The notes below the pieces were generated by a model that made no database searches, was not told where the DNA came from, and saw only the letters and a list, made by a program, of their open reading frames with translations. Below, piece after piece: positions 1 to 28,291 of a stretch of 64,000 nucleotides of DNA (the first letter of the stretch is position 1; each line of letters starts with the position of its first letter). The position numbers and the translations under genes were made by a program. The stretch is from NCBI RefSeq assembly GCF_009914755.1, contig NC_060947.1; one strand, 5' to 3'. This stretch comes from the human T2T-CHM13v2.0 reference genome, Homo sapiens.

Positions 1-520
1 ATAATCTTCATAAAGCTCAACCTGCAGAGAGATTTTTTGACCCTAATCAACGAGGGAAAGCCCTCCACCAAAAGCAAGCCCTTAGAAAAAGTCAGAGAAG
101 TCAAACTGGGGAGAAACTCTACAAATGTACTGAATGTGGAAAAGTGTTTATCCAGAAAGCAAACTTAGTTGTACATCAAAGAACTCACACCGGAGAGAAA
201 CCTTATGAATGCTGCGAATGTGCAAAAGCCTTCAGCCAGAAGTCAACCCTCATAGCACACCAGAGAACTCACACAGGGGAGAAGCCCTATGAATGCAGTG
301 AATGTGGAAAAACCTTTATCCAGAAGTCAACTCTGATTAAACATAAGAAAATTCATATGGAGAGAGACCCTATAAATGCAGTGTCTGTGAGAAAGCCTTC
401 AGTAGGAAGTCAACTCTCATTAAACATCAGATAATTCATATGGGAGAAACCTTATGAATGTAATAAATGTGGGAAATCTTTTAGTGTTAAATCAACTCTC
501 ATTGTATGTCACAGAACATA
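1..520 (+). pseudogene. KRBOX4: Degenerate C2H2 zinc-finger array of a ZNF674 paralog, convergent to ZNF674; probably the 3' exon of KRBOX4 (ZNF673), starting left of the window
   Basis: Reads [19 protein letters not shown]... plus three intact fingers identical to ZNF674 F1-F3 up to base 344, then two fingers broken by frameshifts (near 360 and 445) and a stop at 518-520. Symbol rests on recalled gene order, not on sequence in this window. Confidence 0.7.
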
Positions 521-1437
521 AATGCATAAGTTGCATGCTATTGTGAATAGTGTGATGAAATTTTGCACTGTCCTGCTCTTTCCTGCTCAGGATGCAAATC
601 AGTGAATCTTTTTTTTTTTTTTTGAGACAGAGTCTTGCTCTGTCATCCAAACTGGAGTGCAGTGGCACAATCTTGGCTCACTGCAACCTCCGCCTCTTGG
701 GTTCAACCGATTCTCCTGCCTCAACCTCCCAAATAGTTGGGATTACAGGCACATGCCACCATACGCAGCTAATTTGTATTTTTAGTAGAGACAGGGTTTC
801 ACCATGTTGGCCAGCCTGGTCTTGAACTCCTGACCTCAAGTGATCCGCCTGCCTCAGCCTCCCAAAGTGCTGGGATTACAGGCATGAGCCACTGCACCCG
901 GCTTGAATCATCCTTTTGTCCAGTATTATATCCATGCTGTATATGCTACCCGCCCACTAGTCCCTTAGCTGTCTCAGTTGTCAGATTGACTGTCATGGGA
1001 TTGCAGTGCTTGCATTAAAGCTACCCTTATTGTATAATGACCCCAAAGTGCAAGAGTAGTGATGTTGGCAATTTGCATACACCAAAAATAAGTTATAAAG
1101 TGCTTCCTTAAAGTGAAATGGTTAAAGTTCTTGACTTAATAAAGAAAAAAAATGTATGCTGAGGTTGTTAAGATTTACAGTAAGAATGAATCTTCTATCC
1201 AAGAAATTGTGAAGGAGGAAAAAGAAACTTGTGCTAGTTTTGCTGTCACATCTGAAACTGCAAAAGTTGTGGCCACAGTGCATCATAAGTGCTAAGACGA
1301 AAAAGACATTAAATTTGCGGATGGAAGGCGTGAATAGAAATGGGTTCTGACAGCAATCAGGTTCGGTACTATTCACAGTTTCAGGCATCCGCTAGGGATC
1401 TTGGAACATATCCCCCATGGATAAGGGAGGGGTACTG
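521..1437. mobile_element. MER44/Tigger7-type DNA transposon, left end missing, interrupted by an Alu
   Basis: Resembles recalled MER44 consensus; ends ...cccccatggataagggagggggtactg|ta. Confidence 0.65.
609..902 (-). mobile_element. Alu (S-type)
   Basis: Poly-T followed by reverse-complement Alu dimer; tgaatc on both flanks. Confidence 0.95.
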
Positions 1438-1582
1438 TACCTTGTCATATTGTGCATTAAAGAATTCATTGAGTGTAATCATGTAAGTCTAACACACATT
1501 TAAAAAGCTCTCAGATATCATTTCGCCTTCGGTTGATGTAAGAAAATTCAAAAGCTACTCAAATCATTCAATAAATGATAAA

Positions 1583-1877
1583 ATTATTTATTTATTTATT
1601 TATTTATTTTTGAGACAGGTTATCGCTCTGTCACTTAGGCTGGGATGCAGTGGCATGATCACGGCTCATCAGAGCTTTGACTTCCCAGGCTCAGGTTATC
1701 CTCCCACCTCAGCCTCCCGAGTAGTGGGGACTACAGGCACCCACCACTACACCCAGCTAATTTTTGTATTTTTTTAGATGGGATTTTGCCGTGTTGCCCA
1801 AGCTAGTCTCGAACTCCTGGGCTCAAGTGTTCTGCCCACCTCAGCCTCCCAGAGTGCTAGGATTACAGGTGTGAGCC
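1583..1877 (-). mobile_element. Alu (J-type) with 13-bp TSD aataaatgataaa
   Basis: (TTTA)n tail, Alu body, direct repeats at 1570-1582 and 1878-1890. Confidence 0.93.
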
Positions 1878-25272: not shown

Positions 25273-25559
25273 AAAACATGGAGAATTTTAAGTTCTAAGC
25301 ACTGTTCCTAAGGAAAGTATGTAAAAGCTTACTATGTGCCCTTTCTGTAATGGCTTTGCATTTTTGCACTGAAGATATTGATGAATAATATACGTAAGGT
25401 CTCCTGTTTGAGATCTTTGTTTCAGGGATCCTGATGACTCATCCTCTCTTACCCTATTTCAGGAAGCATTTTTTCTATTTGTTTAGGAAAATAATCTGGG
25501 AGTTTGCCCCACATGGGATATTTTATGCTTTATACTGTTCTTTTAAAAATGTCATACTC

Positions 25560-26422
25560 ACTGAGCGTGGTGGCTCTCGCCTATAATCCCAGCACTTTGG
25601 GAGGCTGAGGCGGGCGGATTACCTGAGGTCAGGAGTTCGAGACCAGCCTGCCCAACATGGCAAAACTGCGTCTCTACTAAAAAAAAAAAAAAAAAAAAAG
25701 AATTAGCCGGGTGTGGTGGTGGGTGCCTGTAATCCCAGCTACTTGGGAGGCTGAGGCAGGAGAATCACTTGAACCTGGAAGGCAGAGGCTGCAGTGAGCC
25801 AAGATCGTGCCACTGCACTCCAGCCTGGGCGAGAAGAGCGAAACTCCATCTCTAAATAAATAAATAATCATACTCTACTCCACAGTGAACATATCTTAAA
25901 TTTATAATTGTTTGCCACCTCTACACCTCTTCCACAAAATGTTTGGTAAAGAACATGGTAAGTGTGGTGGCTCATATCTATAATACAAGTGCTTTGGGAG
26001 GCAAAGGTGGGAGGATCAATTAACGCTACGAGTTCAAGACCAGCCTGGGCAACATAGCAAGACCCTGTCTCTATTAATAAAAGAATATAGAGCATGATTC
26101 CTCTCATTTATACCATGGGTTTGTTTATTTATTTATTTGACAAGGTCTGGCTATAATGCCCAGGCTGGAGTGCAGTGGCACGATCTCAGTTCACTGCAAC
26201 CTCTGCCTCCTGGGCTCAAGCCACCCTCCTACTTCAACCTCCTGAGTAGCTGGGACTAAAGGTATGCACCACTACACTCAGATAACTTTTGTATTTTTTG
26301 TAGAGACAGAGTTTTGCCATGTTGCCCAGGCTGGTCTCAAACTTGTGAGCTCAAGCAATCTGCCCACCTCAGCCTCCCAAAAGTGCTAGGATTACAGGTG
26401 TGAGCTACGTACCACGCCTGGC
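25560..26422. mobile_element. Three Alus downstream of the ZNF674 stop: plus (~25560-25867), plus monomer (~25957-26080), minus (~26119-26422)
   Basis: Alu motifs and tails; minus copy flanked by taccatgg. Confidence 0.92.
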
Positions 26423-26798
26423 TACCATGGTTTTATAAGCTCACTAAATTCTTAGTTTTCCTCGGCATACATACTCTGATAAACAGTGCCATTTAAATTA
26501 TTTCTGAAGGCTTTCCCACATAACTACATTCAGTTTTGCCCCTTTTGAATTATTTGACATACAGTTCTTCACTCCTGGGTGAAGAATTCTGGGTGAAAAA
26601 ACTGATCACATTTATTGACACCTCTGGAATTATACTTTTGTACTTTGTATTAAGTTAAATGAACATTAACATATGAAGAATTTCCAATATTCTGGACATT
26701 TATAAGATTACTCGCCATGATTATTTGACAAATAATGAGACTAGTAATAGTCAAATGACAAATAACTACTAGTATAATTATCCCACTCTCAAGTATAA

Positions 26799-28291
26799 TC
26801 ATAGGTTTTTATCTCCTGTGTGACTTCTCTGATGTTTAATGAGAGTTGACTTCCCACTGAATGCTTTCCCACAGTCTCTGCATTCATAAGGTTTCTCTCC
26901 TGTATGAGTTCTGTGATGCACAATGAGAGTTGATTTCACACTGAAGGCCTTCCCACATTCACTACATTTGTAAGGTTTTTCTCCTGTATGAATTCTCTGA
27001 TGTTTGATGAGAGTTGACTTCCTACTGAAGGCTTTTTTACAGTCAGTGCATTCATAGGGTCTCTCTCCTGTATGAATTCTCTGATGTTTAATCAGTGGTG
27101 ACTTCTCACTAAAGGCTTTCCCACATTCGTTGCATTTATAGGGTTTCTCTCCTGTATGCATTCTCTGATGTACAATAAGGGTTGACTTCTCCCCAAAGGC
27201 TTTCCCACATCTTCTGCATTCATAAGGTTTCTCTCCTGTATGAGTTCTATGATGGACAGAGAGGTGTGACTTTCCACTGAAAGTCTTCCCACATATACTA
27301 CATTCATAGGGTTTCTCTCCTGTATGAATTCTCTGATGAACAGAGAGGTGTGACTTTCCTCTGAAGCTTTTCCCACATTTACTACACTCATAAATGTTCT
27401 CTTTTGTATGAGTTCTCCAATGTTTAGTGGGACTGGGCTTCTCATCAGAGGCTTTCCCATGTTCACTGCACTGAGGTTTCTCACTTGTGTGAATTCTTTG
27501 ATATATAAGGCTGGACGTAGTACATTTAATACCTTTATAAAATGCTTGTCTAATGTGTGTTTTTTCATGTCTAATAAGATGATATGAACTCTTAAAGGCT
27601 TTTGGACATTTGTCACATACAAATGGTTTCTCTCCTGTATGAGTTCGTTGATGTTTAATCAGAGTTGACTTCTGGATAAAGGTTTTTCCACATTCACTGC
27701 ATTCATAGGGCTTCTCCCCTGTGTGAGTTCTCTGGTGTGCTATGAGGGTTGACTTCTGGCTGAAGGCTTTTGCACATTCGCAGCATTCATAAGGTTTCTC
27801 TCCGGTGTGAGTTCTTTGATGTACAACTAAGTTTGCTTTCTGGATAAACACTTTTCCACATTCAGTACATTTGTAGAGTTTCTCCCCAGTTTGACTTCTC
27901 TGACTTTTTCTAAGGGCTTGCTTTTGGTGGAGGGCTTTCCCTCGTTGATTAGGGTCAAAAAATCTCTCTGCAGGTTGAGCTTTATGAAGATTATAATGGA
28001 GGCATACTTTCCAATATGCCTTACATCCATCATCTTTCTTTCTTACATAGCTTCTATTTTGACCAAGAAAGTTTAAATGATGTTTTGAACACCTTTCCCA
28101 TGAATAATATTTAGGGAGTCTTTGTTTTACAGAAACAAAGTCTGTGTTGAGATAAATGATTTTTCTACATATTTTACATTCTTGACCACTTTCATCCTTC
28201 AGTGTTTCCTTGCCTATGAATGCAGCTTGCCACAGAAATTTGTCTTGGCTTTCCTTGTAGTGATCTATCTGCTCGTCAACTTCCCAGACTT
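26799..28291 (-). CDS. ZNF674: Last coding exon of KRAB zinc-finger protein: linker plus 11 intact C2H2 fingers
   Basis: Open frame [19 protein letters not shown]...[11 protein letters not shown]; acceptor ttttcttctag at 28292; TGEKPY linkers; phase matches the KRAB-B donor. The ORF track's MHFLL start is intronic. Confidence 0.93.

What the first reader, a model, noticed from the sequence alone, without database searches (positions are those of the whole stretch)
1..27994. Perfect inverted repeat of at least 344 bp between the paralog tail and ZNF674 coding sequence, 27 kb apart
Seen: bases 1-344 match the reverse complement of 27651-27994 with no mismatch in my line-by-line comparison (position i pairs with 27995-i), including all third codon positions, while adjacent paralogous sequence (345-520) is only about 80-85% identical and frameshifted. 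The tract probably continues left of the window. Inference: an old duplication with a recently homogenised patch, i.e. gene conversion between convergent paralogs or recurrent inversion. A crossover in the arms would invert 345-27650 and swap 3' ends, leaving ZNF674 with three fingers and giving the paralog the full array. Any read-through RNA spanning both arms would fold into a perfect duplex. Short reads here cannot be placed uniquely, so variant and expression calls are ambiguous.
Basis: partly seen in the sequence, partly recalled or inferred. Interest (0 to 1): 0.85.

Follow-up and report, generated by a model that had tools for sequence, protein, structure and literature searches.

The report
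Gene-conversion patch between KRABD4 and ZNF674
A 350-base stretch of the ZNF674 zinc-finger coding exon is copied letter for letter, in inverted orientation, into the untranslated tail of its old neighbouring paralog KRABD4, which is the ordinary signature of recent gene conversion between duplicated genes.

Summary
Window 1-344 equals the reverse complement of 27651-27994 with no mismatch. With flanking DNA from the same assembly, the perfect run is 350 bp (window -5..344 against 28000..27651), not more.

The tract does not run on to the left. The next 200 exon bases are about 90% identical. On the right it stops where KRABD4 lacks ZNF674 fingers 4-8. KRABD4 345-517 then matches fingers 9-10 at 85%, with two frameshifts.

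The two genes form an old inverted duplication, 89.2% identical over 13,047 aligned columns. No shuffle of the mismatches gave an exact run above 136 bp.

Two more near-identical patches, each about 99% identical, lie in the ZNF674 intron and around the KRAB-A exon.

Best reading: interlocus gene conversion, most likely from ZNF674 into the KRABD4 3'UTR. A crossover in the arms would cut ZNF674 to three fingers. It would not give KRABD4 a translated array, because KRABD4 stops 29 bases before the tract.

No inversion allele and no read-through RNA was shown. This is a known kind of event and of modest interest.

The parts
1..344 (+). Left arm of the perfect tract, inside the last exon (3'UTR) of KRABD4. 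The full run starts 6 bases left of the window, at -5.
   Evidence: Exact match to the reverse complement of 27651-27994. The 350-bp run is shown. The KRABD4 stop TGA at -37..-35 lies upstream of it.
27651..28000 (-). Right arm of the perfect tract, in ZNF674 coding sequence. It encodes the pre-finger linker and C2H2 fingers 1-3, up to the first His of finger 3's H-x3-H.
   Evidence: Pfam finds 3 zf-C2H2 stretches in the 116 residues translated from 27651-27998.
345..517 (+). Decayed tail of the KRABD4 finger remnant, paralogous to ZNF674 fingers 9-10 and the end of finger 8. It carries two frameshifting indels and in-frame stops.
   Evidence: The best genome-wide match is 26908-27082 at 85%, the next best 82% or less. 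The alignment gives 187 of 221 columns. Frames are shown.
26908..27082 (-). ZNF674 counterpart of the KRABD4 tail (end of finger 8, fingers 9 and 10). Collinear homology between the arms ends here.
27083..27650 (-). ZNF674 segment with no counterpart in KRABD4 (end of finger 3 to most of finger 8, two degenerate units included). The junction lies in a 12-base string, CTGATTAAACAT, shared by fingers 3 and 8.
   Evidence: Three-way view of the junction. Finger map.
28001..28430 (-). ZNF674 side of the ordinary diverged flank: the start of the last exon (to 28291) and about 140 bases of intron. Its KRABD4 counterpart is -440..-6, outside the window.
   Evidence: 27 mismatches and 13 gap columns left of the tract. 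The bins -244..-45 have 19 mismatches in 200.
56840..58241 (-). Second homogenised patch (A), in ZNF674 intron 3. It pairs with -11228..-12595 and holds a 336-bp exact run. Both edges drop sharply to about 85-87% identity.
   Evidence: 13 substitutions, three 1-bp indels and one 33-bp indel in about 1370 bases. Only two copies exist in the assembly; all other matches are 80% or less.
55442..55970 (-). Third homogenised patch (B), spanning the KRAB-A exon (55751-55877) and flanking intron. It pairs with -9876..-10390.
   Evidence: 5 substitutions and one 14-bp indel in about 515 bases. The flanks have 12-15 mismatches per 100.
518..26907 (.). Unique spacer between the inner ends of the inverted duplication. 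It holds the rest of the KRABD4 3'UTR (to 1590) and the ZNF674 3'UTR (24681-26798). With the tail (345-517) and the ZNF674 finger segment 26908-27650 it makes up 345-27650, the segment an arm crossover would invert.
   Evidence: No collinear inverted match apart from dispersed repeats.

Best explanation
KRABD4 (formerly ZNF673/KRBOX4; names recalled) and ZNF674 are tail-to-tail copies from an old inverted duplication of a whole KRAB zinc-finger gene. The copies have diverged by about 11% overall. The KRABD4 copy lost its finger reading frame and five fingers. Recently, non-allelic (interlocus) gene conversion overwrote 350 bp of one copy with the other. In this process a break in one arm is repaired using the inverted arm 27 kb away as template. 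The most likely direction is from the functional ZNF674 exon into the KRABD4 3'UTR. The tract ends on the right exactly where collinear homology ends, at the finger 3/finger 8 fusion in KRABD4. The same process acted earlier on at least two other patches of the gene pair, each now about 1% diverged. Shown: the identity pattern, its statistics, the anatomy and the reading frames. Inferred: the mechanism, the direction and the age (zero differences in 350 bp gives a 95% upper bound of roughly 4-9 million years at 0.5-1 x 10^-9 per site per year; the rates are recalled).
For: There is a 350-bp exact run where the flank is diverged: 27 mismatches and 13 gap columns in -440..-6, and 19 of 200 in -244..-45. 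The whole paralogy has 11,639 matches and 1,408 mismatches (89.2%) over blocks from -27682 to 369. The two longest exact runs are 350 and 336 bp and the third is 144. In 5000 shuffles the maximum run was 136, and 0 of 20,000 shuffles of the exon block reached 350. Selection is excluded as the cause. The KRABD4 copy lies after its stop codon (TGA at -37..-35), and the neighbouring ZNF674 coding bases are not identical. For direction: the tract encodes three canonical C2H2 fingers in an open frame. The KRABD4 sequence on both sides of it is decayed, with a 1-bp insertion near -102 on the left and two frameshifts plus 15% divergence in 173 bp on the right. A tract that had drifted in KRABD4 for as long would probably have broken ZNF674. 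Patches A and B show the same sharp-edged mosaic at about 1% divergence, and patch A is not a dispersed repeat. The tract has only two copies in the assembly.
Against: Only one haplotype of one species could be examined, so neither the discordant trees that define conversion nor the age or direction were tested directly. The right-hand flank is not an in-register diverged homolog but a deletion junction. The tract and the loss of fingers 4-8 could therefore have arisen together in one template-switch repair event rather than by conversion into an already deleted copy. The direction rests on a coding-integrity argument, not on an outgroup. No PRDM9-type 13-mer lies in or near the arms. An assembly or polishing error cannot be excluded from this sequence alone, though 350 bp between unique flanks is far shorter than the long reads used for this assembly (recalled).
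Confidence: 0.8

Rival explanations
1. One complex repair event made both the tract and the deletion. A break in the decayed KRABD4 finger array was repaired by copying from ZNF674. The new strand then re-annealed out of register, at finger 8 instead of finger 3, through the shared CTGATTAAACAT. This pasted in 350 fresh bases and removed fingers 4-8 at once. It is a sub-case of conversion with a different history.
For: The perfect tract ends to the base at the finger 3/finger 8 fusion. That fusion lies in a 12-base string identical in both fingers.
Against: A tract stopping where collinear homology stops is also what simple conversion into an already deleted copy would give. Nothing in one haplotype separates the two histories.
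Confidence: 0.2
2. Conversion ran the other way, from the KRABD4 3'UTR into the ZNF674 coding exon.
For: The identity itself carries no direction.
Against: The tract is an intact three-finger open frame. The KRABD4 sequence around it has three frame-breaking indels in about 465 bases. A donor that had drifted equally would probably have damaged ZNF674.
Confidence: 0.08
3. The patch is the footprint of an inversion. A crossover between the arms flipped 345-27650, and the conversion that accompanies crossovers left the identical stretch. The region may still flip recurrently.
For: The arms are inverted, 27.3 kb apart, and contain 350 bp of perfect identity. This is near the minimal length usually quoted for homologous recombination in mammals (recalled).
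Against: A crossover by itself exchanges flanks and does not make arms identical. The flanks here are still collinear with their own genes. No inversion at this place appears among the 17 validated inverted-repeat inversions tabulated in PMC3961182, where the X-linked ones lie at 72-153 Mb and the shortest repeats are 1.6 kb (passages). None appears in papers naming KRBOX4 or ZNF674 together with 'inversion'. Larger call sets were not searchable here.
Confidence: 0.1
4. Artefact: the two arms were made identical by assembly collapse or polishing with mis-mapped reads.
For: None from the sequence.
Against: The tract is 350 bp with unique, diverged sequence directly on both sides of each arm, far shorter than long reads (recalled). 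Two further patches show graded 1% divergence rather than all-or-none identity.
Confidence: 0.02

Closest known systems
Interlocus (non-allelic) gene conversion between inverted paralogs on the human X, such as the FLNA/EMD flanking repeats, the IKBKG/IKBKGP1 pair or the F8 int22h copies (examples recalled; FLNA/EMD is listed as HsInv0389 in PMC3961182)
   Same: Inverted copies tens of kilobases apart, with patches of identity standing out of a diverged background. The arms are potential substrates for inversion.
   Different: Those arms are 5-30 kb at more than 99% identity and their inversions are documented. Here the homogenised tracts are only 0.35-1.4 kb in an 89% background, and no inversion is known.
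Functional gene to pseudogene-like copy conversion in zinc-finger gene families (short GENECONV tracts among poly-ZF paralogs are reported in PMC2604467; passages)
   Same: Short conversion tracts inside tandem C2H2 finger arrays of recently expanded KRAB-ZNF paralogs.
   Different: That study names no tract for this pair. It mentions ZNF674 only as a disease gene. Here the acceptor is an untranslated remnant, not a coding paralog.
Arm-to-arm conversion in palindromes of the X and Y chromosomes (recalled)
   Same: Intrachromosomal conversion between inverted arms keeps them identical.
   Different: Palindrome arms are kept above 99.9% identity along their whole length with short spacers. Here most of the arms have been left to diverge.

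Membership tests
Interlocus gene-conversion tract | A run of identity between paralogs significantly longer than their background divergence allows | tested here: met
   The exact run is 350 bp. The maximum was 136 in 5000 shuffles of the whole paralogy, and 0 of 20,000 shuffles of the exon block reached 350.
Interlocus gene-conversion tract | Identity not explained by purifying selection (silent and non-coding sites identical as well) | tested here: met
   The KRABD4 copy lies 3' of its stop codon. All codon positions and 3 CpGs are identical. The adjacent ZNF674 coding bases are about 8-10% diverged from KRABD4.
Interlocus gene-conversion tract | Collinear diverged homology on both sides of the tract | tested here: inconclusive
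   Met on the left, where -440..-6 is collinear with 27 mismatches. On the right the tract abuts a 567-bp deletion junction, beyond which homology resumes at 85%.
Interlocus gene-conversion tract | Tree discordance: arms group by species in the tract and by orthologue in the flanks | not testable with these tools
   No other human haplotype or primate genome is held. Only the window's own assembly could be searched.
Inversion polymorphism mediated by inverted repeats (NAHR) | Inverted repeats with a long identical stretch flanking the segment | tested here: met
   Arms -5..344 and 27651..28000, with 27.3 kb between them.
Inversion polymorphism mediated by inverted repeats (NAHR) | Both orientations observed among haplotypes or species | not testable with these tools
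   A single haplotype was available. Nothing was found in print. Large inversion call sets in supplements were not searched.
KRAB C2H2 zinc-finger gene (ZNF674 last exon) | Tandem C2H2 fingers with canonical Cys/His spacing | tested here: met
   11 zf-C2H2 stretches (E = 2.1e-72) in the 496 residues of the last exon, 3 of them in the tract.
Segmental duplication by the usual working definition (at least 1 kb at 90% identity or more; recalled) | Length and identity thresholds | tested here: inconclusive
   The last-exon block is 815 columns at 94.1%, which is too short. The patch A block is 1604 columns at 95.3%, which qualifies. The paralogy as a whole is 89.2% excluding gaps.

The most novel reading that the evidence does not exclude
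The 350-bp arms are a live recombination substrate. Some human X chromosomes would carry the 27-kb inversion of 345-27650. On such chromosomes ZNF674 ends after three fingers and uses the KRABD4 tail and poly(A) site, while KRABD4 carries fingers 4-11 as 3'UTR. Such alleles would be invisible to short reads and would bear on the disputed role of ZNF674 in X-linked intellectual disability. The three patches of different ages would then reflect repeated exchange, not a single accident.
Probability: 0.1. Interest if true: 0.55.

Novelty: new member of a known kind. Interest (0 to 1): 0.3.

Why it matters
The practical consequence is real but local. Reads shorter than 350 bases from ZNF674 fingers 1-3 and from the KRABD4 3'UTR cannot be told apart (two perfect copies). 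Variant calls in that part of a candidate intellectual-disability gene, and expression estimates for both genes, therefore need care. The locus is also a compact example of how an inverted gene pair drifts apart while short patches are repeatedly reset. Three patches of two ages lie in a roughly 28-kb arm. It offers a defined 27-kb inversion to look for in long-read data, one that would truncate ZNF674 to three fingers. None of this changes how gene conversion is understood.

Tried and rejected
1. Leftward continuation of the tract was rejected. Identity stops at -6.

2. In-register homology right of 344 was rejected. The alignment of 345-470 with 27650-27522 is no better than any finger against any finger. 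The true partner is 27082-26908.

3. The retrocopy L003 was tried as an outgroup to polarise the tract. It covers -298..-14 and then jumps to 1230-1589, so it lacks the tract and gives no direction.

4. A PRDM9-type hotspot motif in or near the arms was not found. The only hit is next to patch A, at -12597 on the left arm.

5. Patch A as an independently inserted young repeat was rejected. It has two copies only, and the other matches are 80% or less and cover a 300-400 bp old element inside it.

6. Literature. No paper describing this tract or an inversion here was found with ZNF673+ZNF674 (5 papers hold both terms, 4 listed), KRBOX4+inversion (3), ZNF674+inversion (12), ZNF674+'gene conversion' (2), KRBOX4+ZNF674 (4), KRABD4 (0) or KRBOX4+paralog (3). 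I read passages only, of PMC5059695, PMC7034409, PMC2604467, PMC2974911 and PMC3961182. The original ZNF674 paper (PMC1380234) is not held, so it may describe the gene pair. bioRxiv supplements are closed, and I did not open the inversion call sets of the large long-read studies listed.

7. The GoNL 'large replacement in KRBOX4' looked as if it might be this tract. It lies about 3.4 kb away in the spacer, near the ZNF674 3' end.

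Full report
**Coordinates.** All places are window coordinates. For DNA left of the window I count 0 as the base immediately before window base 1. With this convention the KRABD4 last exon starts at -297, after an AG at -299/-298, as in the gene table.

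**The observation.**
- An ungapped comparison of window 1-700 with the reverse complement of 27295-27994 has its first mismatch at position 345. The repeat finder gives arms 1-357 and 27638-27994 at 99%.
- The window's own assembly could be searched, and I fetched 40 kb to the left and 20 kb to the right of the window.
- A local alignment across the window edge shows that identity continues for only six more bases. The exact run is 350 bp, -5..344 against 28000..27651. The first difference is at -6.
- The tract occurs at 100% exactly twice in the assembly, and the next best match is 78%.

**What lies around the tract.**
- Left of it, homology goes on collinearly through the start of both last exons and about 140 bases of intron (-440..-6 against 28430..28001), but with 27 mismatches and 13 gap columns. 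The two 100-column bins covering -244..-45 have 12 and 7 mismatches.
- Right of it, the in-register alignment collapses.
- The KRABD4 bases 345-517 find their best partner in the whole genome at 26908-27082, at 85%. The next best is 82% or less. The alignment has 187 of 221 identical columns and two frameshifting indels.
- The ZNF674 last exon encodes 11 C2H2 fingers. The tract covers the linker before the fingers and fingers 1-3, up to the first histidine of finger 3. The KRABD4 tail corresponds to the end of finger 8 and fingers 9 and 10.
- KRABD4 therefore lacks 27083-27650. The junction sits in a 12-base string, CTGATTAAACAT, that fingers 3 and 8 share.
- Collinear homology ends at 517/26908. 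What follows in KRABD4 (an Alu and other repeats, up to the poly(A) signal at 1570) has no counterpart in the ZNF674 3'UTR.

**The wider frame.**
- BLAST of the left 53 kb against the right 71 kb, opposite strands only, gives a collinear chain. It runs from -27682..-25591 against 74288..72224 down to the last-exon block.
- Both whole genes, promoters included, are thus the arms of one inverted duplication. Many insertions separate the homologous blocks.
- Over the 14 blocks of at least 400 columns there are 11,639 matches, 1,408 mismatches and 668 gap columns. That is 89.2% identity without gaps.
- Identity is a mosaic. Most 100-column bins have 10-16 mismatches, but two further stretches stand out.
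- Patch A (-12595..-11228 against 58241..56840) has 13 substitutions, three 1-bp indels and one 33-bp indel in about 1370 bases. It includes a 336-bp exact run. Its right edge is sharp, with 11 mismatches in the next 65 bases.
- Patch B (-10390..-9876 against 55970..55442) has 5 substitutions and one 14-bp indel in about 515 bases, and contains the KRAB-A exon.
- Patch A is not a dispersed young repeat. It has two copies, and all other matches are 80% or less over an old 300-400 bp element inside it.

**Chance and selection.**
- Shuffling the 1,408 mismatches over 13,047 columns 5000 times gave a longest exact run of 136 (mean 68). Shuffling the differences of the last-exon block 20,000 times never reached 350. 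The observed runs are 350 and 336, and the third longest is 144.
- Selection does not explain the tract. In KRABD4 a 1-bp insertion near -102 shifts the frame, and a TGA at -37..-35 ends the protein 29 bases before the tract. The KRABD4 arm is therefore 3'UTR, in agreement with the gene table, which gives no KRABD4 coding parts in the window.
- The ZNF674 coding bases just upstream of the tract are not conserved between the copies.

**Mechanism.**
- A sharp-edged block of identity in a diverged paralogous background, blind to codon position and to coding status, is the standard signature of interlocus gene conversion. A break in one arm is repaired from the other arm without exchange of flanks. 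I hold this at 0.8.
- The direction is inferred, not shown. The tract is an intact three-finger open frame. The KRABD4 sequence on both sides carries three frame-breaking indels in about 465 bases and 8-15% divergence. If the KRABD4 copy had been the donor it would probably have carried such damage into ZNF674. ZNF674 is therefore the likelier donor.
- The tract ends to the base at the finger 3/finger 8 fusion. Either conversion ran up to the end of collinear homology in an already shortened KRABD4, or one repair event copied 350 bases and re-annealed out of register, deleting fingers 4-8 at the same time. One haplotype cannot separate these.
- Age. Zero differences in 350 bp bounds the event at roughly 4-9 million years (95%), for 1 to 0.5 x 10^-9 substitutions per site per year (rates recalled). 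Patches A and B, at about 1%, are older or equally old. The 11% background implies tens of millions of years.

- A crossover inside the arms would invert 345-27650. ZNF674 would then read fingers 1-3, keep the second histidine of finger 3 (HKKIH), add a further 25 residues and stop at 432-434. 'Three fingers' is therefore right.
- KRABD4 would acquire fingers 4-11 only as untranslated RNA, because its stop precedes the tract.
- A crossover alone does not make arms identical, so 'recurrent inversion' is not an alternative to conversion. At most it accompanies it.
- The two mRNAs carry the tract in the same sense. Only a single transcript crossing both arms would form the 350-bp duplex, and I have no evidence for one.
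- The GoNL paper labels a site at GRCh37 X:46,356,714 as lying in 'the last exon of KRBOX4' (PMC5059695, figure legend and Supplementary Data 3). That site is at window 24235, or at its repeat at 22801. Some KRBOX4 models therefore reach far into the spacer, but still about 3.4 kb short of the right arm.

**Literature.**
- I found no description of this tract, of the mosaic, or of an inversion here.
- PMC2604467 reports short GENECONV tracts among poly-ZF paralogs in general (passages).
- PMC3961182 tabulates 17 validated inverted-repeat inversions. None is near this place, and their repeats are 1.6 kb or longer (passages).
- The paper that first described ZNF674 (PMC1380234) is not held and may describe the relation of the two genes.

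**Verdict.** The core interpretation, an old duplication with a recent conversion patch, is supported and extended by two more patches. Three corollaries are corrected. The phenomenon is well known, and this instance appears undescribed in what I could search. Its main value is practical: ambiguous read placement in ZNF674 fingers 1-3, and a defined inversion to look for.

Noticed in passing
L003 1108-2163 (G000:C23:126410006-126413288, minus strand): A processed retrocopy on Xq with the exons of the gene pair juxtaposed: two 5' exons that match KRABD4 only, then KRAB-A, KRAB-B and the last-exon start -298..-14. After 21 unmatched bases comes the KRABD4-specific 3'UTR end, 1230-1589, at 73%. 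It lacks -13..1229 (tract, tail, Alu), so its parent was a KRABD4-type transcript without the finger part. A GT at -12/-11 could be the donor. It is about equally distant from both paralogs (83.5-86%).
   Followed up: partly
window 22798-22993 and 24232-24427: A 196-base perfect direct repeat with 1434-base spacing, just 3' of ZNF674. Its start equals the start of the 191-bp reference allele of the GoNL 'large replacement' labelled KRBOX4. The start of the 1023-bp alternative allele is not in the window. This haplotype may differ structurally from GRCh37 here.
   Followed up: partly
window 6553-7867 against 35883-37245, and 6698-7206 against 19438-19946: Inverted matches of 0.5-1.4 kb at 81-88% inside masked repeat stretches of the spacer and the ZNF674 intron. 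They are probably copies of one dispersed element, not part of the gene duplication.
   Followed up: no
left arm -12893..-12616 (outside the window): An Alu-like insertion present only in the KRABD4 arm sits exactly at the outer edge of patch A. The insertion may have set the limit of that conversion tract.
   Followed up: no
window 1300-1450: The KRABD4 3'UTR contains what looks like the end of a Tigger-type DNA transposon. The name is recalled from the sequence and was not tested with any repeat library.
   Followed up: no
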